Notes: generated by a model not told the origin, from the letters alone. A stretch of DNA of 64,000 bases from an uncultured Gammaproteobacteria bacterium (GCA_964536725.1 CAZHYJ010000001.1:53018-117017), one strand, 5' to 3'; shown: positions 7,813 through 24,441, numbered from the stretch's first letter. Translations and numbers: made by a program.

Positions 7813-7832
7813 AAGTCGTCAAATAAAACTTG

Positions 7833-7906
7833 CGGGTATAGTATAACGGCTATTATGCGTCCTTGCCAAGGACGAGTCACGGGTTCGACTCCCGTTACCC
7901 GCTCCA
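7833..7906 (+). tRNA. tRNA-Gly (anticodon GCC), CCA encoded. Its 3' end overlaps the 3' end of the serine recombinase gene on the opposite strand.
   Basis: Acceptor GCGGGTA/TACCCGC; anticodon stem CGTCC/GGACG; loop TTGCCAA; T-arm ACGGG-TTCGACT-CCCGT; then TCCA. Confidence 0.85.
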
Positions 7907-9483
7907 ATGTGAATAAACAGCTTGAAAAGAGCTGTTTTTTCTTTTATCTTCGCAATAAATTGTCGGTTCTAACATGGCCTTTTGAAGGACTTCATCCTTT
8001 AAACCTTCACGCAAAGTTAAGTATGGTTTTTGCAGTTCAATATGCAGTTTTTTGTCCTTTAAATAAAAGTTCTGACCGAGCGTTCGTAAAATATCGGTTT
8101 TAATCTGTATGTCTCCGGCCTCAAATTTGATTTTGGCATAGGTGGCAAACTCAAAAGCACCTTCCGTTAATTCTACCCATTCATTGACCCCTGTCTCAAT
8201 TTCTCTTATCACACCCTCAATTCGCGCCTTCTCCGTCATTAAGGAATTTTTCTGTTCTCTATATTCGTTATCACTTAAAAATGTTCGGTCAGCGTTACTC
8301 GGTGATATAAACAAATTTATTAAATTATCTATGCTTTTAAGGCAGTTGTTATAATTTTCTTGTTGAGCCTTTAATACAATCTCCCGGTTCTTTTCCTCAA
8401 TAATATTTCTGTTCCTTAATATTTCAACAGCCCAATGCAAAAATTCTTCCGGTATAGTAATGGCATCTAGATAGGTAGAAATTTGTTTTAGAATTTCCTC
8501 ACTGGTTATTGATTTTTGGCTGCATGTCTTACCACATTTATTATGCGAGCAATGGTGGTAAAGATGTCTTTTAATACTTCCGTCCTTCATCTTTTTAAAT
8601 TTTTCTTCGGCAGTTATCATACCATCGCATTCAGCACAACGGATTATTCCATTAAAAGGTAACCTTTTATATTTAGGCCGTGGTTTTCCGCTCTGCCCTA
8701 ATATTTTTTGTGCCAAATCAAACTGTTCTTTCGTGATCATTGGTTCATGTTTGCCTTCGTATATTTTTCCATTATAAACAAATTCACCACAATAAAAAGA
8801 ATTGGTAAATATTTTATACATTGCACTTAAACATAATGGCTGGCCATCTTTGTTTCTCAATCCATACTCATTGCATACTATCTGATGAATTTGATTAACG
8901 GAGTAGTTGCCGGTTAGCAATAACCCCCAGGCTTTTTTTACCAACTCAAATTTTGATTCGTCTTTAAATAATCTTTTTTTACCTTTTTCTCCTGCTTTAT
9001 CGTTTAGATATCCGATAGCAGCAATGCCCGGTCTCCATCCTTTTTCAACTTTTGTATTCATTCCTCGCTTAACATCCTTGCTTAAGTCAAGGACATACTG
9101 GTTGGCCATGCCAAACTCAACAGCCATCATCAATATGTTGTCGGTGGGTAAGTATTCTCTACCAGGCGTAACAATTGATTTTATTATCCCTTGTTGTAAA
9201 AGCCATTGTATCTCACCGCCATCAATTGGATTTCTGGCTAGACGGTTTAATTTCCAACAAACCACACCATCTGCTTCGCCGCGTTTTATCATTTTCATCA
9301 TTTCATCATATTGTGGTCTACCTGGTTTCTTTGCCGACATTGATTCGCCAAATGTTTTGATAATATTTAAGCCTTTTCTTTTAACTTCATATCCTAACTC
9401 CTTTTTTTGATCATCAATAGATTGAACTTGACGATCTTCGGAATCAGTAGATTTTCTACAATACATGATATAGCGTAATGACA
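7895..9483 (-). CDS. Large serine recombinase (resolvase-type N-domain, recombinase domain and zinc-ribbon), integrase of an integrated element
   Basis: N-terminal ..YCRKSTDSEDRQVQSIDDQ.. holds the catalytic-Ser region. ..VVCWKLNRLARNPIDGGEI.. and a Cys cluster (..CAECDGM...HHCSHNKCGKTC..) follow. The ORF is open to 9541; the likely start is MSLRYIMYC at 9483. Confidence 0.8.
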
Positions 9484-9510
9484 TATAATTTAATTTTAAT
9501 AATAAATAAA

Positions 9511-9630
9511 AGGACGGTCTGGTTGACCCAACTCTATACATTCCGAAGGAATGATATCGCTGGCAGACCGCCCTTTTATGGCAGTGATATCAAAAAATAA
9601 AACCTTCGGATAGATTATAGGTTGGGTCAA
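9511..9630. repeat. Nested inverted repeats just upstream of the recombinase start: GTTGACCCAAC/GTTGGGTCAAC, CCGAAGG/CCTTCGG, GGACGGTCTGG/~GGCAGACCGCC
   Basis: Seen directly. Candidate operator or recombinase-binding site. Confidence 0.4.
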
Positions 9631-11082: not shown

Positions 11083-11856
11083 TCAGTCACCAAATAACAT
11101 TTTTCTCTTTTTTTGAATTACAGAGTAGATTTTTCTTACAAGTGAGGCTTTACTTGTTTTTTTAAAAAACTTTTTAGCTATTTCTTTACTGGTGTATTGC
11201 TCTAACTTTTTATCTACTTTATATCCATTTTTTTTCTTTATTTTTTCATATTCAGTTTCACTATACTGTTTTTTTAGTATTGATAGATACATACTGGGGT
11301 GTTCAACCCACTCTTTTTTTCTTTTCCGCATTTCCTCTTCAATTTTTATAGCTAAATCTATATCAATTTTGGGTCTTAAATCCAGCGTTACCTTTGATGG
11401 CAAAAATTCTTTTTGTAATTGTAGTAATTTTTTGGTCGCTGCTCTAATTTCTTCTTTTGTTAGCGATGCATATGCTTTAATTGATACCCACTTATTAGAT
11501 CTGTTTCCGCTAGGGTCTGGGCCAAGAGAAACAGCAAAGTTAATTTTAGGAGCATCTATTTTATTAGAAATAATAAAATTTTTTATATGAATCAAAAAAT
11601 TATACCGTAATTGATATTTTTTTGTTAAACTTTCTGCATTATAAAAAAGACCGCTCTCATCCAATAATGATCTTTTGTTTGGGGGAAGCGCGTTTAGGTT
11701 TTTGCCAAGCCAATGTTTTTTTAGTATTTCATTATCAAATCCATGTACAGGAATTTTTATTTTTTTTCTGATCTTTTTAACATCCTCCAAAAATTTTGGA
11801 TGACTTGCGAGCAGTTTCATTATAAACAAATTTTCTTTATATGTTTTTTCAAACAT
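11083..11856 (-). CDS. Hypothetical Lys-rich protein
   Basis: ORF with coherent composition. No recognised motif. Confidence 0.4.
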   Translation of the reverse strand: MFEKTYKENLFIMKLLASHPKFLEDVKKIRKKIKIPVHGFDNEILKKHWLGKNLNALPPNKRSLLDESGLFYNAESLTKKYQLRYNFLIHIKNFIISNKIDAPKINFAVSLGPDPSGNRSNKWVSIKAYASLTKEEIRAATKKLLQLQKEFLPSKVTLDLRPKIDIDLAIKIEEEMRKRKKEWVEHPSMYLSILKKQYSETEYEKIKKKNGYKVDKKLEQYTSKEIAKKFFKKTSKASLVRKIYSVIQKKRKMLFGD

Positions 11857-11883
11857 ATGGTAATTTTAAAAATTATACCTTTG

Positions 11884-11912
11884 TTGACTTGAGGGTAAAT
11901 AAGCTGTAATAT
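11884..11912 (+). promoter_or_regulatory. Promoter (TTGACT-17-TAATAT) reading into the structured RNA region and the first cassette
   Basis: The hexamers are seen directly. Confidence 0.45.
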
Positions 11913-12024
11913 TATGATATTATAATTTAGTATATATTAGCTTAACTACAAAGACAAATTACTAATTACAATACCTAACCCCTAGAGACTTCTGGCGATT
12001 CTTTTCTAGGATATGGTAATCAAA

Positions 12025-12137
12025 CCCTACGCGAATAAAGATGGTCTTCTGACCAGCACTTATTCGCGTAGGTTCACTCCCGAAAGGGGGCGAGGCAGGT
12101 CCGAAAGGATTTGTCGCTGTGTCGGGAGGCCTTTTTT
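12025..12137 (+). ncRNA. Candidate structured RNA: a 14-bp hairpin, then a helix with GAAA tetraloop carrying the SRP-RNA-like motif CAGGUCCGAAAGGA, then GCCUUUUUU
   Basis: The local sequence is GC-rich. Paired arms are CCCTACGCGAATAA/TTATTCGCGTAGG and CTCCCGA/TCGGGAG. A 10-nt direct repeat CCTACGCGAA lies at 12026 and 12167. SRP RNA identity is a guess. Confidence 0.25.
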
Positions 12138-12180
12138 GTTCTCTCGGCGAGCCCTAATTATTAAATCCTACGCGAAAAAT

Positions 12181-12903
12181 ATGAAGAAATATCTTCTAAT
12201 TTTATTCTTGGTAGCAATCATGTTTCCCTCGGTAGCTTTTGCTTCTTGGTGGAATCCTTTTTCTTGGAAAATTTTTAATTCCTCTCACAAAAAAGAAGTA
12301 GTGCTACAGGCACAGGCGGTTAATAATAAACCAGTAGTTAGTCCAACGGTAGAAAACAAAAAACTACAAAATCAAAATTTAAATTTAGAAAAAAAACCAA
12401 AAGAAATCGCTAATGATGAATGGTATAATGTTACAATTTTAACTCCTCCGAACAGAAAATCAGATGATCCACCTGGGGGAATGAAGTTTGAGGTTAAACT
12501 TAAAAATCTAAATGTAACCCCGTTTATTACAAATCTAGGTATCTGTGGATGTACTCTTTCTGATCTGAAAGGGAAAACCTACAGAACTGAATTTTCCGGT
12601 GAAGGTAGATTAAAAAAGGCTTTATTACCAGGAGAGGAAGCCAGCTTAAATTTTTTTAGTACGTTCAGTCATAGAGAATTTGTTAAAAATGGTGAAGTTG
12701 AGTGTCGCGGGGAAAATACTTTAGATTTTATTATGTTGGATTGGAGTAAAAATATAGTTAAGTGTATATATAATCAATCCGGTGAGTGTGCATGTGAAGA
12801 TCTTGGCCCAATGCATGTTGTGAATTGTGATTTCAGTATTTCAACAGATGGCAAGCAAGCTTCTTGCTGGGGCAAATATCCGACGACAGTAAAAATAGAT
12901 TAG
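12181..12903 (+). CDS. Secreted hypothetical protein (signal peptide MKKYLLILFLVAIMFPSVAFA)
   Basis: The ORF is open from 12013, but the N-terminal 56 codons overlap the structured RNA. The likely start is M12181. Confidence 0.5.
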   Translation: MKKYLLILFLVAIMFPSVAFASWWNPFSWKIFNSSHKKEVVLQAQAVNNKPVVSPTVENKKLQNQNLNLEKKPKEIANDEWYNVTILTPPNRKSDDPPGGMKFEVKLKNLNVTPFITNLGICGCTLSDLKGKTYRTEFSGEGRLKKALLPGEEASLNFFSTFSHREFVKNGEVECRGENTLDFIMLDWSKNIVKCIYNQSGECACEDLGPMHVVNCDFSISTDGKQASCWGKYPTTVKID

Positions 12904-17125: not shown

Positions 17126-17377
17126 ATGGGTGAATTTGCAGATGTAAAAAGAAAGAAAATTTTAAAGCTGCTGAAAAAGTTAGCTCAAATAAATGGCTTT
17201 ACAATCACTACTGGAGGTAATCATCAATGGGTAATTAGGTATACGAGCTGGCAGAGACCTTTCCCAATCCCATTTAAACAAAATAAGTTAAAAAAATGTT
17301 ATATTGAGGATCTTGCAAAGCTGGTCATTGCAACTGGAACATGCACAGAAGAAGTTTTTAAGGAATGGATAGGGTAA
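17126..17377 (+). CDS. hicA: HicA-like mRNA-interferase toxin
   Basis: ..KKILKLLKKLAQINGFTITTGGNHQWVIRYTSWQRPFPIPFKQNKL..DLAKL.. matches the HicA/YcfA pattern. The start is 4 nt after the hicB stop. Confidence 0.55.
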   Translation: MGEFADVKRKKILKLLKKLAQINGFTITTGGNHQWVIRYTSWQRPFPIPFKQNKLKKCYIEDLAKLVIATGTCTEEVFKEWIG

Positions 17378-17437
17378 AATAAAAATAAAATACACCTATT
17401 TTGTGAGTGTATTTTTTAATTTTGTATAAAAAATATA

Positions 17438-17590
17438 GTTCTAACATCCTCTACTAAGGAGCTCACTTTTCGTAAAACACCAAAACTCTGCTAAGTCTGG
17501 CAGAGTTTTTGGTTCTGATATTTGGCATAAGGTACATATATTTACTACCCCTTTGGAGAAAAAATGGCAAGAGTAGAACCGATTGAAAAA
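17438..17590 (+). repeat. Cassette-boundary repeat, copy 1 (long form): GTTCTAACATCCTCT..AAGGAGCTCA box, then hairpin AAAACTCTGC/GCAGAGTTTT with a T-run
   Basis: Near-identical over about 135 nt to the copy at 19598. It contains a tiny SD-ATG ORF (MARVEPIEK..). Confidence 0.6.
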
Positions 17591-17619
17591 GGATTATTTT
17601 TTTGGTATAGTTAATCATA

Positions 17620-18480
17620 ATGACTACTATTTTGAACCCCTGTTATTTTAACCTTTTTATGTATAGCATTCTTTTTCCGTTAATTTTGGTCTTTGTTATT
17701 TATTTTTTGGTAAAAGAATACAAAAGATACAGGTGGCCAAAGGTTTTTTCAAGAAAAATTACAAAAGAGCTGGGGAAACAGTTTGATAAATTGTGGAAAG
17801 CCAAAGATGACGGCCTCCTGGATTTGAAAATTTTTGATTCAGCCAAAAGAGTGTTTGAAAAATATTCTATTTACTTTTCTTCTTCTTTGGAATGGACACC
17901 ACTTCTTAAGAATGACGAAGGCCCAATCGACCCCGACCAGGCTGTGATTTTACGAAAGGAAATGGATAATTATTGGGTCATGGAAAAAAGTGTTATTTGC
18001 GATAATCATGTTTATAAATTTGAAGAAAAGCCCGATGGCGTTTTTATGCTTTTTAGGGATGGAGAATTAATAGGTGAAGTTAAAAGTGGAATTACGGATA
18101 GTAATAAAGTTTGTTTTATAAATCCACCAGACCCTAAATGTTTTTTTAATTCAACGCCATCTTGGGGAGAAGTTTTTGTCTGGAAAGATAACTATATTAT
18201 TAAAAGCTATACAGAGAATAGTGCCACCTTTAAAATCAATAATGACTTTTTAGAACTTCCAAAATCATGGGATGGAAAAATGAAAGCTCATGCTTTTGTT
18301 TTGGATAAAGATGGAGTTGTGGAATCTGCTGTTTTTGAAATCAAAGAAACATTAAATCCCCCGATTCCGCTGGATAATATTTATTGGTGCAAGTATCTTG
18401 GAAATGGAAAATTATCTCCACCAACATTGATTATTTCACAGGCTCATTTGGAAAGCGCGAGTATAAATGAGGTCAATTAA
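17620..18480 (+). CDS. Hypothetical protein with an N-terminal TM segment
   Basis: ORF only. Confidence 0.45.
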   Translation: MTTILNPCYFNLFMYSILFPLILVFVIYFLVKEYKRYRWPKVFSRKITKELGKQFDKLWKAKDDGLLDLKIFDSAKRVFEKYSIYFSSSLEWTPLLKNDEGPIDPDQAVILRKEMDNYWVMEKSVICDNHVYKFEEKPDGVFMLFRDGELIGEVKSGITDSNKVCFINPPDPKCFFNSTPSWGEVFVWKDNYIIKSYTENSATFKINNDFLELPKSWDGKMKAHAFVLDKDGVVESAVFEIKETLNPPIPLDNIYWCKYLGNGKLSPPTLIISQAHLESASINEVN

Positions 18481-18515
18481 ATTTATAGGTAGAAACCAAT
18501 TTATTTTGGTAAACC

Positions 18516-18577
18516 GTTCTAACATCCTCTATCAAGGAGCTCGCCGTAAACTTCGCTTAAACAGCGGGGTTTTTTGT
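18516..18577 (+). repeat. Cassette-boundary repeat, copy 2 (short form): conserved box, then G-U-containing hairpin AAACUUCGC/GCGGGGUUU with a T-run
   Basis: It shares the box and AAACTTCGCTTAAACAGCGGGGTT with the copies at 21124 and 22214. Confidence 0.6.
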
Positions 18578-18612
18578 TATACCCACAAGAAGAGTCGAAC
18601 TAAAACAAAAAA

Positions 18613-18638
18613 CACTCAGTAATTCTGAGAGTTTTTTA
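18613..18638 (+). terminator. Hairpin CTCAG-TAATT-CTGAG followed by AGTTTTTT
   Basis: Seen directly. Confidence 0.4.
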
Positions 18639-18790
18639 TTCCTCAATCACTTCTATAAATAAAAATGATAATCGGAGGGGAGGTCAAGACTTGCGTCACG
18701 ACCCCCGTTGCGAGTGCGTTCGTCAAACCTTGCGGTCTTCAGAACAGCACTGACACAGTTCCCCTCCGAGCGCGCCGGCCGTGTGACCGA

Positions 18791-19336
18791 CTACGCCGGC
18801 TTATCGGCCGACTTCTGCGCGCGCATGACCCGCACGTAGCCGAGCACGTCGGCCCAGCTCGAGACGAAGGCCGGGCCCATCACGTTCTCGTCGTGGACGA
18901 GGCCGTTCTGGGTCCAGAACTCGATCTCGGCGGCGTTGTTGTCGATGACGCCGGGGTCGTGGGGCTCGCGCGGGGCGCTGGGGCCGGGGAAGCTGGTGTA
19001 GAGCTGCCACGACGTGCCGTCGTCCGAGATGCCCGCGATGACCGTGAAGAGGGACGTCGGCTGCTTCTCGATCCCGACGAGGACGTGGCTCGGCACGTCG
19101 CGGCCCTTGCGGAACGCGAAGTACATCTGCCCGTTGTCCACGACGGGGAGGCAGCCGTTGAGGCCGACGATGCGCCCCATGTCGATGGTCGTCAGCAGGA
19201 ACCCCCCGCTCTCGGGCATGGTCACCATGCCGATCGCCTCCTCGAGGAGGGCCATCGCCTCGGGGTGCGCCTCGAGGTGCTTCTGGGTCTGGTCGGACAC
19301 GATGACCTTCTTGCCGCACTTGCTCTGGAATTCCAT
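18791..19336 (-). CDS. Hypothetical protein on a strongly GC-rich (foreign-composition) segment
   Basis: Of three overlapping long ORFs in this segment, only this frame has a balanced amino-acid composition. It also has a GGAGG Shine-Dalgarno 6 nt before the ATG. The segment, about 18.66-19.44 kb, is by eye roughly two-thirds G+C against AT-rich flanks. Confidence 0.55.
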   Translation of the reverse strand: MEFQSKCGKKVIVSDQTQKHLEAHPEAMALLEEAIGMVTMPESGGFLLTTIDMGRIVGLNGCLPVVDNGQMYFAFRKGRDVPSHVLVGIEKQPTSLFTVIAGISDDGTSWQLYTSFPGPSAPREPHDPGVIDNNAAEIEFWTQNGLVHDENVMGPAFVSSWADVLGYVRVMRAQKSADKPA

Positions 19337-19597
19337 CGGAAAACCTCCATTGTGGCCGGATTGGTTGCCGGCACTTGGTTCACTACCCGCCCTAAGAGCG
19401 CGGAATACTTAACGCCAGACTGACGTAAAATACACCGCGTTTTAGTGCAGATGATGTAAGGGAACTGTGTCTTGTAAAGAACAGCGTTCCATTATTAGGA
19501 ACCGAATGGTATAGCATAAAAAGGGATTTTTGTCAAGATTAAGGCTAAAAAATGGCTAATTTAACTGTTTGCACAAACTTCTCTATTTATCAAAGCA

Positions 19598-19731
19598 GTT
19601 CTAACATCATCTACTAAGCAGCTCAGATTTTCAAAAACCTCAAAACTCTGCTAAATCTGGCAGAGTTTTTGGTTCTGATATTTACTACCCCCTTTGGAGA
19701 AAAAATGGCAAGAGTAGAACCGATTGAAAAA
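19598..19731 (+). repeat. Cassette-boundary repeat, copy 3 (long form)
   Basis: Near-identical to copy 1, including the hairpin AAAACTCTGC/GCAGAGTTTT and the tiny ORF MARVEPIEK... Confidence 0.6.
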
Positions 19732-19892
19732 ACTGTAAATATCTGGTAATCTAATATGGTATATTATTTATATGGACAAACAAGAAGAGATTAAAAAAAT
19801 TAGAAAATTAGTTCAGAATAGAATTAAACTAAAAAAAGAACTGGCTAGCTTGCCAGAATTTAAGGAACGATTAAAAAAAGCAAAAGAAAAAT

Positions 19893-21068
19893 ATGAGGCC
19901 AAACAATGAGGGCATATCAATCGGTGCAACAGAACTTTCGCGTGAAAGGGTCCTTGAAATGTCACCAAAAGAATTGGTTGATTATTTTACTCACCTTGAA
20001 GAATCTGGGGGATTAGAAGCATACTTGCAAAGAGCTTCCAAGGATGATGCTTTGGTTGCTATGTTTAGTTATTGGGAAAAGTGGTTGACAAATGATCAGC
20101 GCGCGATGGTTGATGATATTGTAAGACAGAAAAAAGAGTTATATCCTGGAAACAGTGAGTCATTACCACTAGAATTGGAAAAAAGGTTTACTGGAGACGA
20201 ACTTGAAATTATTTTTTCAAATTTATTAGCTATACAACTTACTTTTGGTTGCTCCAAAGGTTGTCCGTTTTGCGGTTTTGATGCGGTTCCTGGCGTAAGA
20301 GAACACATACCTTATTCTCAATTGGCTAATATGTTTCAGAGGTTTGGTAAAGAGATTGGGGAAAGTAAGCCGTTGTTGTATTATGCTTCAGAACCAACCG
20401 ATTACCTCGACGAAGATAATACATACATGGATGTGCATCAGTTGGCAGTAGAGTATGCTAAGTATAAGCCACATGTAACGAGTAAAAATACTGATACTGA
20501 GTGGGTTGATTTTTTATCTAAAAAAGTAAATAAACCAAGAATAAGCTTGTTTGGTGTTCCAGAAGAATCAATATTAAATTTGGAAAGCTTGTCTGCAATC
20601 ACAGGTATTGAATTAGGGGGAAGACAAAAAAAACACTTTGAGGGTTTGGGAGTTTCAAGACAAAAGACAGAAGCGCCATTTAGTGTTGGGATAGGCTGTG
20701 GAAGTGGTATCTTAATTACACCACGAGGTTTGTATAATACTTTAACTTTATCAAGGACCAGCGATAGGTTTCCTCAGGGTATAGCAATTCAACCGTTTGA
20801 AAAAGAAGATGATAATTTTGATATAAAAATAGGGTCAGATGTTGTTGAAATAATGAAGAATACTTTAATAGGCAAGTTGCGTGCCATTACTGGTTTTTTC
20901 TTCGTAAGACAGCATGGTGTAAAAGTGTATGTAAAAGTTAATGACGCTGGTAAAGTTGTTGATTTTTACAAACAAAACGAACCTTGGAACCGGGCTGATC
21001 ACCAGCCATTTTTTGTGGAACTTGTTGATAGGCTCTTAGCGTCTGAGAAAGTAGCTGGTGTAAAATAA
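19893..21068 (+). CDS. Hypothetical protein with a CxxxCxxC motif (..TFGCSKGCPFCGFD..), possible radical SAM-like enzyme
   Basis: Only the CxxxCxxC motif was noted; the remaining radical-SAM signature was not checked. Confidence 0.4.
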   Translation: MRPNNEGISIGATELSRERVLEMSPKELVDYFTHLEESGGLEAYLQRASKDDALVAMFSYWEKWLTNDQRAMVDDIVRQKKELYPGNSESLPLELEKRFTGDELEIIFSNLLAIQLTFGCSKGCPFCGFDAVPGVREHIPYSQLANMFQRFGKEIGESKPLLYYASEPTDYLDEDNTYMDVHQLAVEYAKYKPHVTSKNTDTEWVDFLSKKVNKPRISLFGVPEESILNLESLSAITGIELGGRQKKHFEGLGVSRQKTEAPFSVGIGCGSGILITPRGLYNTLTLSRTSDRFPQGIAIQPFEKEDDNFDIKIGSDVVEIMKNTLIGKLRAITGFFFVRQHGVKVYVKVNDAGKVVDFYKQNEPWNRADHQPFFVELVDRLLASEKVAGVK

Positions 21069-21123
21069 ATAAATTTATTTTTATAAAAAATAGACAGATA
21101 ACAAATTAATTTATAATTAAATT

Positions 21124-21189
21124 GGTTCTAATATCCTCTGCCAAGGAGCTCAGATAAAAACTTCGCTTAAACAGTGGAGTTTTTTCTTA
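21124..21189 (+). repeat. Cassette-boundary repeat, copy 4 (short form)
   Basis: GGTTCTAATATCCTCTGCCAAGGAGCTCAGATAAAAACTTCGCTTAAACAGTGGAGTTTTTT. Confidence 0.6.
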
Positions 21190-21327
21190 ATATGGTATTA
21201 GAGAAGAGTCATATTTTATTGCTTTAAACCGTGAAAAAAGTAGTTTTTCTATATATTTTCACGGTTATATTGACAAAATAGTGAAAATATGCTATAATTG
21301 TATTAGATTCTACATTTAAGTTAGTAT

Positions 21328-22200
21328 ATGGCTAAAATATCTAATGTTTTCAATAAAATAAACGACTTACGTAAACGTTATTATTTAGCGGCTGTTGGCA
21401 GACAATCACTTTTGAAATTAATTAGCGAAACTGAAGTAGCTGAACAAGTTTACAATTCTAATGCTATAGAAAACAGCACTTTGTCCCTTGAAGAAACAGA
21501 AAAAATTCTACTGCAAATAGATCTGGACAGATATATTTCTGAGCGAGAAATTTTTGAAGCTAAAAATTTAGCACGTGTGGTCTCATATATAGATACCAAA
21601 GCTAAAGAAAAAGAACTCGATTTGGATGTTATTTTGATGTTACACAAAATGTTAATTAGTAATATTAGAGAAGACGTAGCGGGACGTTTTAGAAAAGAAA
21701 ATGAGTGGGTGCGAGTTGGTAATCATATAGCAGTTGATCCTAAAGAAATAATTGGTCGCTTAGAAAAAATGCTAGCTGAGTACAATGCCGAGAGCCAAGA
21801 AAATGTTATAAAAAGAATAGCACGTTTGCATTTAGCTTTTGAATACGTTCATCCTTTTGTCGATGGTAATGGTCGAATTGGTAGAGTGTTAAATAATTAT
21901 TTATTGATCAGAGAAGGGTTTGTGCCGATAAATATTAAATTTATTGATAGAAAAATGTATTATGAAGCATTCAAAGAGTTTGACACCAATGAAGCGACGG
22001 GTGTAATGGAGGAGATCGTCGGCCGTGCTTTGACCAATAGTTATCATAAGAGGTTGGCATATTTAGAGAGTAAAAATATTATTACCCTTAAAGAGTACGC
22101 ACAAAAAAATAAAATATCACATTCAAACGCTATCAACAAGGCTACTCGTCAAACTATTGAAGCTTTTTTGGAAAAGGGAATTTGGAAAATTGGAGAATAA
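21328..22200 (+). CDS. Fic/Doc-family protein (putative AMPylase)
   Basis: The canonical Fic motif HPFVDGNGRIGR is present. Confidence 0.8.
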   Translation: MAKISNVFNKINDLRKRYYLAAVGRQSLLKLISETEVAEQVYNSNAIENSTLSLEETEKILLQIDLDRYISEREIFEAKNLARVVSYIDTKAKEKELDLDVILMLHKMLISNIREDVAGRFRKENEWVRVGNHIAVDPKEIIGRLEKMLAEYNAESQENVIKRIARLHLAFEYVHPFVDGNGRIGRVLNNYLLIREGFVPINIKFIDRKMYYEAFKEFDTNEATGVMEEIVGRALTNSYHKRLAYLESKNIITLKEYAQKNKISHSNAINKATRQTIEAFLEKGIWKIGE

Positions 22201-22213
22201 TTTGTTGTAAGCA

Positions 22214-22278
22214 GGTTCTAACATCCTCCACCAAGCAGCTCACCGTAAAACTTCGCTTAAACAGCGGGGTTCTTTGTT
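22214..22278 (+). repeat. Cassette-boundary repeat, copy 5 (short form)
   Basis: GGTTCTAACATCCTCCACCAAGCAGCTCACCGTAAAACTTCGCTTAAACAGCGGGGTTCTTTG. Confidence 0.6.
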
Positions 22279-22692: not shown

Positions 22693-24441
22693 TTATTTAA
22701 AAAGCGATATAATAAAACAGTTTTTGGTAACGTGGGTTGACAAAGTATGAAATGCGAGTATAATAGGGGATAGATTACATCGCGGGGTAGAGCAACCAGG
22801 CAGCTCGCAAGGCCCATAACCTTGAGGTTCCCGGTTCAAATCCGGGCCCCGCAACAATGTTGGACTCTGGTCATATAAAGTGGCCAGAGTCCTTTTTGTT
22901 AAAGGGTCTTCCGGAGGTTCGAAGTTTTTTTTAATCTCTTTTACTTCTTTGGACGCCTCTTCTAAAAGCACGAGCGGTTTTTGCGCTTGGAAAAGCACTT
23001 TTCCGTCTTTAAGTAATAGGTTCGAACCGAGACCCGACAGAATACTGCGTTTTGTAAATATATTATTTTCTTGGAACTTTTCTCTGGCAATTTGGGCGAA
23101 TGAGAAAATCTTTCCCGCCCTTTCTTTAGACTTATCCTCTTGGTTATTTTTACCAGATAATATATATTCCAAATTTTCTTTCTCTTTATTAATTTCAGCC
23201 TTTTTTTCTTTGGCTACCGTTTCAGATATCTCGCCGTTAATACGCATGTCCACTATAGTATCTAGTTTTTTGAGACAAGATGCTAGGGATTTTTCTAAGT
23301 TGGATACTATAATATTTTGATCGTTTTCTTTTTGTTGAGTTTCGTTTTTTAATTTTTCCAAAGCCCAAACACAGAAATCATTCGGTATCTCTATTCTATT
23401 CAGGATGTCCGTAATTTGCTCCTCGATTTCTTTTTCTTGGACATACCTCTGTGAGCAGTTGGGATTCTTTTGTTTGGTACAATGATAATATGTATATACA
23501 TGGGTGTTACCATTTTTTTGTTTCTTAACTCTTAATTCAGCGGTTATCATTGCTCCACATTCGCCACAACGTAATGGCCCCCGAAAAGCGAAATCGAATT
23601 TTTTCGGTCGCGGTTTATTTCGACCAGATATAATATCTTGTATTTGATCAAATTCTTCTTTGGTTATCATCGCGGGATGCTTTCCGTCATACCAGTTTCC
23701 ACTACCTTGGGGGTATTCATATCTACCATAATAGAACGGCAGAGTGAACATGCGGTAAAAAGTACTACGACCGATCGGTTTTCCGTTATCCATACGGAAT
23801 CCCCACTTATGAGTTATTACACGCCATAATTCTTGGACAGTGTACTGTCCAGTTAACATCTCTCGGAACGCTCTTTGGATGATGGGGAAGCGCTCTTTAT
23901 CTATCAAGATACACCTTGATCCGCCGGTGAGATTTGGAGTGTTTAAGTACCCTGTGGGGGCGTGTGAGGGATATATACCCATTTCTGCTTTAGTACGTAA
24001 TCCTCTGGCCGTATTGTGGCGTAGGTCGATAATGTATTGGTTAGCCATGCCTAACTCTACAAACATCATTAGGACGTTGTCGGTGGGGTAATAATCGCGA
24101 TCATAAGCCCGTATGTGTTGGATAATACCTTGTTGGAGCATCCAGTTGATAATACCGCCGTCAACAGGGTTTCTGGCCAAACGATCTAGTTTCCAACAGA
24201 CGATGCCGTTGGCCTCACCTTTTTTTATTCGTTCCACCATTTCATTAAACTCAGGGCGTGCACCAGGTTCTTTGGCCGAGTGGGCTTCGGTGAATGTCTT
24301 AACGACTTTAAGGCCGTCACGTCCAACGAGTTTTTTCATTTCACTAATTTGGGAATCGATAGAGAGGGCTTGTCGTTCTTCGCCCTCACTACTTTTTCTG
24401 CAGTAGAGAAAATATCTTAGTGGTTTTTTGTTGCTTCGCAT
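22693..24441 (-). CDS. Large serine recombinase, paralog of the one at 7895-9483
   Basis: ..YCRKSSEGEERQALSIDSQ.., ..IVCWKLDRLARNPVDGG.., and a Cys cluster (..CGECGAM...HCTKQKNPNC..). The ORF is open from 24483; the likely start is MRSNKKP at 24441. The C-terminal roughly 55 codons read through the tRNA-fMet antisense. Confidence 0.8.
   Translation of the reverse strand: MRSNKKPLRYFLYCRKSSEGEERQALSIDSQISEMKKLVGRDGLKVVKTFTEAHSAKEPGARPEFNEMVERIKKGEANGIVCWKLDRLARNPVDGGIINWMLQQGIIQHIRAYDRDYYPTDNVLMMFVELGMANQYIIDLRHNTARGLRTKAEMGIYPSHAPTGYLNTPNLTGGSRCILIDKERFPIIQRAFREMLTGQYTVQELWRVITHKWGFRMDNGKPIGRSTFYRMFTLPFYYGRYEYPQGSGNWYDGKHPAMITKEEFDQIQDIISGRNKPRPKKFDFAFRGPLRCGECGAMITAELRVKKQKNGNTHVYTYYHCTKQKNPNCSQRYVQEKEIEEQITDILNRIEIPNDFCVWALEKLKNETQQKENDQNIIVSNLEKSLASCLKKLDTIVDMRINGEISETVAKEKKAEINKEKENLEYILSGKNNQEDKSKERAGKIFSFAQIAREKFQENNIFTKRSILSGLGSNLLLKDGKVLFQAQKPLVLLEEASKEVKEIKKNFEPPEDPLTKRTLATLYDQSPTLLRGPDLNREPQGYGPCELPGCSTPRCNLSPIILAFHTLSTHVTKNCFIISLFK
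22781..22854 (+). tRNA. Initiator tRNA-fMet (anticodon CAT)
   Basis: Near-identical to E. coli tRNA-fMet: CGCGGGG acceptor with a C1-A72 mismatch; anticodon loop CCCATAA; T-arm CCCGG-TTCAAAT-CCGGG. It lies entirely antisense inside the 3' end of the recombinase-2 ORF. Confidence 0.8.

What the first reader, a model, noticed from the sequence alone, without database searches (positions are those of the whole stretch)
12013..12180. GC-rich structured RNA candidate with an SRP-RNA-like GNRA-capped motif, flanked by a 10-nt direct repeat
Downstream of a good promoter at 11884 there is a 14-bp hairpin (CCCTACGCGAATAA..TTATTCGCGTAGG). A second helix follows, closed by CTCCCGA/TCGGGAG, with internal loops and a GAAA tetraloop in the context CAGGUCCGAAAGGA, which resembles the conserved helix-8 motif of SRP RNA. 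Then comes GCCUUUUUU. The same region supplies a spurious Arg-rich N-terminal extension to the downstream ORF. CCTACGCGAA occurs at 12026 and 12167, and inverted at 12063. It may be the SRP RNA, another small RNA, or a terminator/antiterminator leader for the secreted-protein gene.
Basis: partly seen in the sequence, partly recalled or inferred. Interest (0 to 1): 0.5.

Follow-up and report, generated by a model that had tools for sequence, protein, structure and literature searches.

The report
LOOT RNA leader with hidden switch
This is a copy of LOOT, a catalogued but unexplained structured RNA of ultra-small (CPR/Patescibacteria) bacteria; comparing about 190 copies shows it heads the cargo transcript of serine-recombinase mobile islands, has an uncatalogued pseudoknot ending in a U-run, and, here, carries a mask for the next gene's start site.

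Summary
Rfam places 11972-12115 in the LOOT family (RF03000, 63.6 bits against a threshold of 46.4). No SRP model matches, even at E<=10.

I collected about 190 further LOOT copies, almost all from Patescibacteria. They show three things that the 121-position Rfam model does not contain:
- The tail after the last hairpin (window 12121-12131) pairs with the apical part of hairpin 3 (12043-12053). This is a 14-bp pseudoknot, 94-95% paired, with 13 of 14 pairs showing compensatory changes. A U-rich run follows it.
- A promoter -10 box usually lies 11-30 nt upstream, and a same-strand ORF starts 15-90 nt downstream in 81% of copies (17% at random positions).
The 3' arm of hairpin 3 is complementary to the bases just before the start codon (42 observed against 1.5 expected). 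The two folds are nearly equal in predicted energy.

The best reading is a cis-acting, two-state leader that controls termination and translation of variable cargo genes in serine-recombinase islands. The trigger is unknown.

The parts
11884..11912 (+). Promoter-like site (TTGACT, 17 nt, TAATAT). It would put the transcription start near 11920, about 50 nt before LOOT.
   Evidence: 9/12 match; weak. In other loci the best -10 box ends 11-30 nt before LOOT in 71 of the 112 loci that have a >=9/12 promoter match (183 scanned). No expression data.
11972..12115 (+). LOOT RNA core as modelled by Rfam. P1 is 11972-75 with 12015-18. P2 is 11980-86 with 12005-11, with a 16-nt insertion in its loop. 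The A-rich linker is 12019-12025. P3 is 12026-38 with 12060-72. P4 is 12040-46 with 12051-57. P5 is 12074-81, GAAA, 12086-93. P6 is 12094-12102, GAAA, 12107-15.
   Evidence: RF03000, 63.6 bits, gathering score 46.4, model positions 1-121 of 121; 89.6 bits against my extended model R1; helices covary in 100 homologues.
12043..12053 (+). Segment 'a' (GGUCUUCUGAC), the 5' strand of the pseudoknot. It overlaps the P4 5' arm, loop and start of the 3' arm.
12121..12131 (+). Segment 'T' (GUCGGGAGGCC), the 3' strand of the pseudoknot. It pairs with 12043-12053 (11 pairs including G-U). It lies outside the Rfam model.
   Evidence: pseudoknot columns 94.8% and 93.3% paired, 13 of 14 pairs with changes on both sides, although the tail was not part of the model's structure; duplex -18.5 kcal/mol.
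12132..12140 (+). U-run (UUUUUUGUU) directly after the pseudoknot helix; a terminator-like 3' end.
   Evidence: In 154 of 183 homologues, 5-9 of the 10 nt after T are U. T161, T162 and T164 are nearly invariant in alignment A1.
12140..12149 (+). Segment T' (UCUCUCGGCG), which can pair with 12120-12129 to form a local hairpin that competes with the pseudoknot.
   Evidence: present in the minimum-free-energy fold of the window. Across the family it is enriched only in per-locus tests and is not supported in fixed alignment columns.
12160..12179 (+). Copy of the linker plus the P3 5' arm (AUUAAAUCCUACGCGAAAAA). Positions 12167-12179 can pair with the P3 3' arm 12060-12072 (12 of 13), covering -14 to -2 of the start codon.
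12181..12903 (+). First cargo gene: a 240-aa secreted protein (signal peptide, then SWWNPFSW), with ATG at 12181.
   Evidence: homologues L401, L196, L206 and L217 start at the equivalent Met directly after their own LOOT.

Best explanation
Window 11972-12183 is a LOOT RNA acting as the 5' leader of the rightward (cargo) transcript of a tRNA-integrated, large-serine-recombinase island in a Patescibacteria genome.

Shown:
- The RNA folds into the six LOOT helices.
- Its 3' tail (12121-12131) pairs with the top of hairpin 3 (12043-12053) to form a pseudoknot, which is immediately followed by a U-run.
- The bases just before the start codon (12167-12179) repeat the 5' arm of hairpin 3, so they can pair with its 3' arm instead.

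Inferred:
- The pseudoknot plus U-run acts as an intrinsic-terminator-like stop. Most transcripts therefore end as a LOOT RNA of about 215 nt, and only read-through transcripts carry the gene.
- In read-through transcripts the leader has two states. When hairpin 3 is closed, the start region is free and the secreted protein is translated. When the 5' arm is removed, occupied or unfolded, the 3' arm captures the start region and blocks initiation.

The signal that chooses between the states is unknown. It could be a factor binding the conserved 5' domain, 5' processing or decay, or a ligand.
For: Family membership: (63.6 bits against 46.4). All 18 comparison loci tested pass the Rfam threshold.

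Pseudoknot:
- Own-locus contiguous helix has a median of 11 bp against 7 bp in permuted pairs.
- On a model-guided alignment in which the tail was aligned only by sequence, the 14 pseudoknot pairs are 93-95% paired and 13 show changes on both sides.
- Frequent G-U pairs mean the signal belongs to the + strand RNA.
- The duplex is predicted to be far more stable than the competing P4 hairpin, median -23 against -5.6 kcal/mol.
- A U-rich run follows T in nearly all copies.

Leader position:
- The best -10 box ends 11-30 nt before LOOT in 71 of the 112 loci that have a >=9/12 promoter match (183 loci scanned).
- A complete ATG-ORF of at least 60 aa starts 15-90 nt after T on the same strand in 141 of 175 loci (81%), against 17% at random positions. 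That gap is too short for a separate promoter.

Start-site mask:
- The 3' arm of P3 forms at least 9 contiguous pairs with positions -24 to +4 of the start codon in 42 of 170 loci, against 1.5 expected. For at least 10 pairs the figures are 30 against 0.3.
- The distribution is bimodal.
- About 19 different arm sequences each have their own matching copy.
- The copy ends 0-8 nt before the ATG.
- The two folds are nearly equal in energy (median difference 2.6 kcal/mol out of about -80).
- An RNA lacking the 5' arm adopts the masking helix in 41 of 42 loci.

Context:
- The window island has a serine recombinase beside a tRNA, and LOOT lies in the divergent intergenic region.
- A homologous recombinase lies within 6 kb upstream in 17 of 30 loci with enough sequence, against 4 of 31 downstream.
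- The downstream genes are very diverse. The module, not the gene, is what is conserved.
Against: - There are no expression, end-mapping or probing data. Termination at the U-run is inferred from resemblance only.
- The 'terminator' stem encloses about 70 structured nucleotides and is a pseudoknot, unlike canonical intrinsic terminators. The consensus scan did not call it.
- Only about 25% of LOOT copies have the start-site copy, and no other LOOT segment is complementary to the start region in the rest. Translational masking therefore cannot be the family's general function.
- In the window the LOOT fold is favoured by 9-10 kcal/mol, so masking needs an extra event.
- The T:T' hairpin, which would complete a neat two-state model, is not supported in fixed alignment columns. 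RNAalifold predicts nothing there.
- The copy often matches the 5' arm beyond the helix and includes the unpaired A-rich linker, which pairing alone does not explain.
- The comparison set was retrieved with a sequence pattern, so it samples one part of the family.
- Energies ignore the pseudoknot.
Confidence: 0.55

Rival explanations
1. LOOT is a free-standing, trans-acting small RNA, which is Rfam's label. The pseudoknot and U-run are simply its terminator. The downstream gene is an unrelated neighbour or is only passively expressed by read-through. A variant of this idea has the short RNA acting on the read-through mRNA or on sister elements. Precedents are the P4 CI RNA, which pairs with complementary seqA and seqC upstream and downstream of itself, and the Gifsy-1 IsrK RNA, whose short form acts on its own read-through isoform.
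For: - Rfam type 'Gene; sRNA'.
- A conserved helix plus U-run at the 3' end.
- A promoter close to the 5' end.
- 75% of copies have no complementarity to the start region.
- The P4 CI and IsrK precedents are described in PMC4825925.
Against: - 81% of copies have a same-strand ORF starting 15-90 nt after T, leaving no room for another promoter.
- The candidate antisense segment (the P3 3' arm) is buried in an 11-13 bp helix rather than exposed in a loop.
- No extra copies of the arm sequence exist elsewhere in the window.
- No match to the Rfam C4/CI family.
Confidence: 0.2
2. LOOT is a true riboswitch: an aptamer for a small molecule or ion. The pseudoknot would be part of the ligand-bound fold, with variable expression platforms (terminator, or start-site mask).
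For: - An ornate, conserved fold with invariant unpaired nucleotides (CCUAA, AUGG, A-rich linker).
- A 5' UTR position.
- Mutually exclusive, near-isoenergetic folds in a quarter of copies.
Against: The controlled genes share no function. Of 142 downstream proteins, the commonest Pfam families are zinc ribbons (9), DNA methylases (6) and trypsin-like proteases (3), and most have no family. This gives no hint of a ligand and is unlike any validated riboswitch class. The occurrence is tied to mobile islands, not to a pathway.
Confidence: 0.12
3. The three copies of the arm sequence (direct, inverted, direct) are DNA sites for the island's serine recombinase or for a repressor, or LOOT is an RNA cofactor or guide for the recombinase. 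On this view the RNA-like structure is secondary.
For: - Strong linkage to large serine recombinase genes in three fixed layouts, including gene ends only 40-50 nt from LOOT.
- The copy matches the 5' arm beyond the helix and includes the linker, as a duplicated site would.
Against: - G-U pairs are frequent in the helices and would be A-C mismatches on the other strand.
- GNRA loops and compensatory changes occur in every helix.
- The third copy is anchored 0-8 nt from the start codon and is absent from 75% of loci.
- The arm and 'a' sequences do not recur at the island ends or elsewhere in the window.
- Within the helix, the few informative positions follow the complement of the 3' arm (5) rather than the 5' arm (2).
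Confidence: 0.06
4. The region is the SRP RNA of this genome, or it encodes a real N-terminal extension of the downstream protein.
For: A GNRA-capped GC-rich helix. An open reading frame runs from 12013 into the gene.
Against: - No SRP model match at E<=10.
- The region fits LOOT over its full length.
- The reading frame overlaps helices that change by compensatory substitutions.
- Homologous proteins start at the Met equivalent to 12181.
Confidence: 0.01

Closest known systems
LOOT RNA motif (Rfam RF03000; from the Weinberg/Breaker ZWD collection, listed as a metagenome-based RNA in the Rfam 14 paper, PMC7779021)
   Same: Full-length match to all 121 model positions and all six helices, with the conserved CCUAA, AUGG, A-rich linker and two GNRA loops. 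Same habitat and taxa as the other copies I retrieved.
   Different: The window copy has a 16-nt insertion in the P2 loop and two non-canonical pairs. The catalogued model stops at P6. It therefore lacks the tail, the pseudoknot, the U-run and the start-site copy described here. It is typed as an sRNA gene rather than a leader.
Translational 'ON' riboswitch expression platforms, such as the add adenine riboswitch (from my own knowledge)
   Same: One strand of an aptamer helix is complementary to the ribosome-binding region, so the helix and the mask are mutually exclusive. The two folds are close in energy.
   Different: No ligand is known and the controlled genes have no shared function. The switching helix here is an internal hairpin (P3), not the closing P1. 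Only a quarter of copies have the platform.
P4 CI RNA and P1/P7 c4 immunity RNAs, and Gifsy-1 IsrK (PMC4825925)
   Same: A small structured RNA made from the leader of an operon in an integrated mobile element. Sequences complementary to a segment of the RNA lie both upstream and downstream of that segment in the same transcript (seqA and seqC for CI; P3 5' arm and start-site copy here). In IsrK, a terminated short form coexists with a translationally inactive read-through form.
   Different: No sequence or structure match to the Rfam C4 family. In LOOT the upstream complement is part of the conserved fold itself. Processing and trans action are untested. The hosts are Patescibacteria, not enterobacteria.
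Canonical intrinsic (Rho-independent) terminator
   Same: A GC-rich 11-14 bp helix immediately followed by a U-rich run.
   Different: The two strands are about 70 nt apart, with P3's 3' arm, P5 and P6 between them, and the topology is a pseudoknot. The U-run is usually interrupted (CUUUGUGUU). It was not called by the consensus scan.
Bacterial SRP RNA
   Same: A GC-rich helix capped by a GNRA tetraloop.
   Different: No covariance-model match at any threshold tried. The motif belongs to LOOT P6. LOOT copies sit in mobile islands and can occur more than once per genome (L345 and L393 come from one MAG).
Recombinase-associated guide RNAs, such as the IS110 bridge RNA (from my own knowledge)
   Same: A structured non-coding RNA encoded next to a recombinase gene of a mobile element, with variable segments repeated in nearby DNA.
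   Different: The partner is a large serine recombinase (Resolvase, Recombinase and Zn_ribbon_recom domains), not a DEDD/Tnp IS110 enzyme. The variable segments do not match the island ends. The nearby repeat is tied to a start codon.

Membership tests
LOOT RNA (RF03000) | Score at or above the curated gathering threshold over the full model | tested here: met
   63.6 bits against 46.4, model positions 1-121 of 121, E = 1.3e-9.
LOOT RNA (RF03000) | Six helices with the conserved unpaired CCUAA, (C/U)AUGG, A-rich linker and GNRA loops on P5 and P6 | tested here: met
   Alignment to the model. Two non-canonical pairs (in P2 and P5) and a 16-nt P2-loop insertion. The centroid fold reproduces P2, P3/P4, P5 and P6.
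LOOT RNA (RF03000) | Helices supported by covariation among homologues | tested here: met
   100 homologues: 95.5% of cells paired against 72.5% in shuffles; 40 of 50 pairs with changes on both sides. The nested helices were fitted to the model, so those counts lean towards it.
Cis-regulatory leader / riboswitch-like element | Lies in the 5' UTR directly upstream of a same-strand gene | tested here: met
   81% against 17%. The -10 box lies 11-30 nt upstream in most loci that have a promoter match. In the window, ATG 12181 is 49 nt after T.
Cis-regulatory leader / riboswitch-like element | Mutually exclusive alternative structure involving the terminator or ribosome-binding site | tested here: met
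   The start-site mask is present in the window and in 42 of 170 copies (1.5 expected). Folds are near-isoenergetic. P4 and the pseudoknot share nucleotides. This is not a family-wide feature.
Cis-regulatory leader / riboswitch-like element | Controlled genes share a function that points to a ligand | tested here: not met
   142 downstream proteins fall in 56 Pfam families, none in more than 9 members.
Cis-regulatory leader / riboswitch-like element | Binding of a ligand or factor changes the fold and the gene's expression | not testable with these tools
   Needs probing and reporter assays.
Intrinsic terminator | Stable GC-rich helix immediately followed by a U-tract | tested here: met
   12043-53:12121-31 followed by U6. 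The same holds across the family.
Intrinsic terminator | Simple hairpin with a short loop | tested here: not met
   The strands are 67 nt apart and the topology is a pseudoknot. Not called by the scan.
Intrinsic terminator | Transcripts end in the U-tract | not testable with these tools
   No RNA-seq or in vitro transcription available.
Bacterial SRP RNA | Match to the Rfam small or large bacterial SRP covariance models | tested here: not met
   No hit at gathering score in 64 kb or at E<=10 in 11850-12260.
P4 CI / P1 c4-type immunity RNA | Match to the Rfam C4 family | tested here: not met
P4 CI / P1 c4-type immunity RNA | Complementary target sequences flanking the RNA segment in the same transcript | tested here: inconclusive
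   The P3 5' arm and the start-site copy are both complementary to the P3 3' arm. However, the upstream one is part of the fold, and 75% of copies lack the downstream one.
P4 CI / P1 c4-type immunity RNA | Processed stable RNA that acts on nascent transcripts | not testable with these tools
   Needs Northern blots or end mapping.
Recombinase guide RNA (IS110 bridge-RNA type) | Variable RNA segments complementary to the element's ends or target | tested here: not met
   The arm and 'a' sequences occur only inside the LOOT locus in the window.

The most novel reading that the evidence does not exclude
LOOT may be a dedicated control RNA of serine-recombinase mobile islands in Patescibacteria that reports or sets the state of the element. 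For example, it could be bound by the recombinase or another island protein, or act as an RNA cofactor of recombination, and so gate expression of whatever cargo gene sits behind it by swapping the partners of its 3' half. The evidence does not exclude a direct functional link between the RNA and the large serine recombinase. Such a link would be the first RNA partner known for that enzyme family.
Probability: 0.08. Interest if true: 0.9.

Novelty: new member of a known kind. Interest (0 to 1): 0.55.

Why it matters
LOOT has been in Rfam for years as a metagenome-only RNA with six covarying helices and no proposed function. It belongs to the Candidate Phyla Radiation, where almost nothing is known about gene regulation or mobile elements.

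The window copy and about 190 relatives give LOOT a concrete, testable anatomy:
- It is the 5' leader of the cargo transcript in tRNA-integrated serine-recombinase islands.
- It ends in a strongly covarying pseudoknot plus U-run that the catalogued model omits.
- In a quarter of cases it carries a built-in mask for the next gene's start site.

If confirmed, this would be a portable expression-control module that CPR mobile elements place in front of very different genes, including secreted and membrane proteins, restriction-modification methylases and nucleases. It would also correct and extend the Rfam model.

For the window itself the practical result is simpler. The region is not SRP RNA, and the gene starts at 12181.

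Tried and rejected
- SRP RNA, 6S RNA and riboswitch families: only LOOT matches.
- Relatives of the two flanking proteins in viral contigs: none found.
- DNA pattern scans:
  - The first was too loose, giving 120 mostly random hits of which only L009 was real.
  - The second used a gap range that excluded L009 and found nothing.
  - The third scanned all viral contigs and again found only L009. LOOT is therefore rare in IMG/VR.
- T:T' hairpin as a family-wide element: RNAalifold predicts nothing. Fixed-column counts equal the shuffles (48.8% against 49.2%). Only the per-locus test shows enrichment, so I keep it as a feature of the window and a subset of copies.
- Complementarity of the start region to any other LOOT segment in copies that lack the repeat: no excess over permuted controls.
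- Arm or 'a' sequences at the island ends, as a test of the guide-RNA idea: none found.
- Identifying the organism from RpoB: the exact-match look-ups returned no name.
- The Weinberg 2017 supplement that describes LOOT is not held, so I could not check whether its authors drew a pseudoknot. My statement that it is new rests on the Rfam model ending at P6.
- An alternative TTG start at 12136, with GGGAGG at 12124-29: rejected because it lies inside the conserved tail and U-run, and because homologues start at the later Met.

Full report
**What is in the sequence.**
- The arms 12026-12038 and 12060-12072 are 13 nt long and perfectly complementary.
- There are GAAA loops at 12082-85 and 12103-06, and GCCTTTTTT at 12129-37.
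- CCTACGCGAA occurs exactly three times in the 64 kb, all here: 12026(+), 12167(+) and 12063(-).
- The direct repeat is in fact 20 nt long at 85% identity, 12019-38 and 12160-79.
- The stretch 11965-12145 folds better than all 200 shuffles, z = -4.6.

**Identity.**
A scan of the whole window against Rfam at curated thresholds gives six tRNAs and one other hit: LOOT RNA (RF03000) at 11972-12115 on the + strand. It scores 63.6 bits against a threshold of 46.4 and covers all 121 model positions.
- No SRP, 6S or riboswitch model matches, even at E<=10 in 11850-12260.
- LOOT is known only as a metagenome-derived motif (PMC7779021). It has about 43 base pairs in six helices (PMC7657543). I found no paper that proposes a function for it. 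The supplement that first described it is not held.

**Setting in the window.**
G+C drops from about 0.43 to 0.28-0.39 between 8 and 18 kb.
- The low-GC stretch starts at a tRNA (7832-7903). A large serine recombinase gene abuts it at 7895-9541(-), with Resolvase, Recombinase and Zn_ribbon_recom domains.
- Next come a small protein matching the N-terminal part of the terminase small-subunit (Terminase_2) profile, a ParG/omega-like protein, and three unknown minus-strand genes.
- LOOT lies in the divergent gap 11857-12180.
- To its right is a run of plus-strand genes for small secreted or membrane proteins with no family.
- This is an integrated mobile island, with LOOT at the head of its rightward transcript.

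**Collecting relatives.**
- The flanking proteins have no relatives in viral contigs.
- Pattern scans of viral contigs found one true copy, L009 (90.9 bits). It has the same layout: tRNA, serine recombinase, terminase genes and a ParB-like methylase on one strand, then LOOT, then a membrane protease and a type I restriction system on the other strand.
- A tighter pattern returned 120 metagenome loci and 119 species-representative genome loci.
- After parsing there were 194 distinct LOOT copies, 183 of them with at least 120 nt downstream.
- All 18 copies that I re-tested pass the Rfam threshold.
- The named genomes are almost all Patescibacteria: Paceibacterota, Saccharibacteria, Gottesman-, Doudna-, Uhrbacteria and others.
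- Because the set was drawn with a sequence pattern, it samples only part of the family.

**A pseudoknot that the catalogued model lacks.**
In the listed sequences, the tail after hairpin 6 is complementary to the top of hairpin 3. Examples are CUCGUCGUCAG/CUGGCGGCGAG in L009 and GGUCUUCUGAC/GUCGGGAGGCC in the window.
- Per locus, the longest contiguous helix between the inside of hairpin 3 and the tail has a median of 11 bp, against 7 bp when tails are paired with other loci.
- I built a covariance model of LOOT plus tail with only the nested helices and realigned 100 loci.
- I then counted the pseudoknot, which the model did not contain. It has 14 pairs, 94.8% and 93.3% paired, and 13 pairs show changes on both sides. 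Examples are CG:40/GC:38 and UA:53/CG:36.
- Sliding the partner by one to three columns drops pairing of the whole structure to 38-46%.
- G-U pairs are common, for example UG:69 at one position, so the constraint acts on the + strand RNA and not on DNA.
- The pseudoknot uses the same nucleotides as the short P4 hairpin of the Rfam model. It is predicted to be much more stable: median -23 against -5.6 kcal/mol, stronger in 181 of 183 loci.
- Directly after it comes a U-rich run. In 154 of 183 loci, 5-9 of the next 10 nt are U, and three T columns are nearly invariant.
- In the window the pairing is 12043-53 with 12121-31, followed by UUUUUUGUU.

**LOOT is a leader.**
- The best sigma-70-like -10 box ends 11-30 nt before the first LOOT base in 71 of the 112 loci that have a >=9/12 promoter match (183 loci scanned).
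- In the window the best candidate lies further upstream, at 11884-11912, and it is weak.
- A complete ATG-ORF of at least 60 aa starts 15-90 nt after the tail on the same strand in 141 of 175 loci. At random positions in the same loci the figure is 17%. The gap is mostly 30-60 nt, too short for a separate promoter.
- The proteins encoded are very diverse. Among them are zinc-ribbon membrane proteins, signal-peptide proteins (several sharing the window protein's SWWNPFSW motif), type III and type II DNA methylases, nucleases and trypsin-like proteases. Most have no family.

**The repeat before the start codon.**
- In the first 105 loci, the 5' arm of hairpin 3 recurs downstream at 9/11 identity or better in 31%, against 3% for arms taken from other loci.
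- I then tested the 3' arm directly for complementarity to positions -24 to +4 of the first long ORF, excluding controls with similar arms. At least 9 contiguous pairs occur in 42 of 170 loci (1.5 expected), and at least 10 pairs in 30 loci (0.3 expected). The distribution is bimodal.
- About 19 different arm sequences each have their own matching copy, so this has arisen or been maintained many times.
- The copy ends 0-8 nt before the ATG.
- In the window, 12167-79 pairs with 12060-72 at 12 of 13 positions and covers -14 to -2.
- Forcing either hairpin 3 or the masking helix gives nearly equal predicted energies across the 42 loci: median difference 2.6 kcal/mol, range -5.2 to +15.6. In the window hairpin 3 wins by 9-10 kcal/mol.
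- An RNA that lacks everything 5' of the 3' arm adopts the mask in 41 of 42 loci.
- The other three quarters of copies show no complementarity between the start region and any LOOT segment.

**What remains loose.**
- A hairpin between the tail and a downstream T' (window 12120-29 with 12140-49) appears in the window's minimum-energy fold. It is enriched in per-locus tests: at least 9 bp in 39 loci against 15 expected. It is not supported in fixed alignment columns.
- The copy often matches the 5' arm beyond the helix and includes the unpaired A-rich linker.
- No data show where transcripts actually end.

**Link to serine recombinases.**
Homologues of the window or L009 recombinase lie within 6 kb upstream of LOOT in 17 of the 30 loci with that much sequence. 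Downstream the figure is 4 of 31. There are three layouts:
- the recombinase gene on the same strand, ending 40-50 nt before LOOT (14 loci);
- the gene divergent, with its start about 115-200 nt away (17 loci);
- the gene 2-5 kb upstream on the opposite strand, often beside a tRNA, as in the window.

The arm and 'a' sequences do not recur at the island ends or elsewhere in the window. This argues against a DNA-targeting role.

**Mechanism proposed.**
Shown:
- the LOOT fold;
- the pseudoknot followed by a U-run;
- the leader position;
- the start-site complement in this copy and a quarter of the others.

Inferred:
- The pseudoknot and U-run stop most transcripts.
- Read-through transcripts are translated while hairpin 3 is closed. 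They are silenced when its 5' arm is lost or occupied and the 3' arm captures the start region.
- The trigger is unknown.

Analogies:
- Translational ON riboswitch platforms (from my own knowledge).
- The leader-derived RNAs of other integrated elements. P4 CI RNA has complementary seqA and seqC on either side of it. Gifsy-1 IsrK has a terminated short form and an inactive read-through form (PMC4825925). There is no sequence or structure membership in those families.

**Verdict.**
The finding is real and is a new copy of a known family, so its novelty is modest.

Noticed in passing
window 17437-22278: Five copies of an intergenic element sit one after each of five consecutive genes (the ORF ending at 17377, 17620-18480, 18665-19423, radical SAM 19893-21068, Fic 21328-22200). 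Each has a conserved 27-mer, GTTCTAACATCCTCTACCAAGGAGCTC, followed by a hairpin and a U-run. A tRNA at 22781-22854 follows about 500 nt after the last copy. It looks like a cassette array with a shared 3' boundary or terminator module. No Rfam match.
   Followed up: partly
window 7832-9541: The 3' end of the large serine recombinase gene (7895-9541, minus strand) overlaps the 3' end of a tRNA (7832-7903), and G+C drops at this point. This is probably one end of the integrated island. I did not find the other end or an att repeat.
   Followed up: partly
window 12124-12138: GGGAGG (12124-29) is followed 6 nt later by an in-frame TTG (12136), which would add 15 residues to the secreted protein. 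It lies inside the conserved pseudoknot strand and U-run, and homologues start at the later Met, so it is probably not used.
   Followed up: partly
window 12181-12903; L401, L196, L206, L217: Several unrelated LOOT loci are followed by secreted proteins that share only a signal peptide ending in FA(S/A)WWNPF(S/T)W. This may be a conserved N-terminal motif, such as a sorting or processing signal, in Patescibacteria.
   Followed up: no
L230 2489-2706 (+): A group I intron (RF00028, 88.1 bits) lies about 0.9 kb from the LOOT copy in this metagenome contig.
   Followed up: no
L009 2416-5403: The one LOOT copy found in IMG/VR has a terminase large-subunit-like gene, a small HTH protein and a ParB-like nuclease/methyltransferase between the recombinase and LOOT. 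No capsid genes are present in the 12.6 kb. It resembles a phage satellite more than a prophage.
   Followed up: no
L199 249-556: Here LOOT starts only 115 nt after a tRNA gene, with no recombinase in between, and is followed by a C5 DNA methylase. LOOT can therefore sit at the very edge of an island.
   Followed up: no
L230, L273, L290, L280, L267, L219, L226 (20-45 nt before the ATG): LOOT copies that lack the start-site repeat and follow a same-strand recombinase gene share a conserved AAAGGTCG between the tail and the start codon. In L226 the GGTCGA part is repeated three times. Unexplained.
   Followed up: no
L330, L333, L338, L342, L345, L347 and others: Many LOOT-bearing MAGs titled 'uncultured Gammaproteobacteria' have contigs or chromosomes of only 0.35-0.9 Mb and Patescibacteria-type LOOT islands. 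The record titles are probably mislabelled.
   Followed up: no
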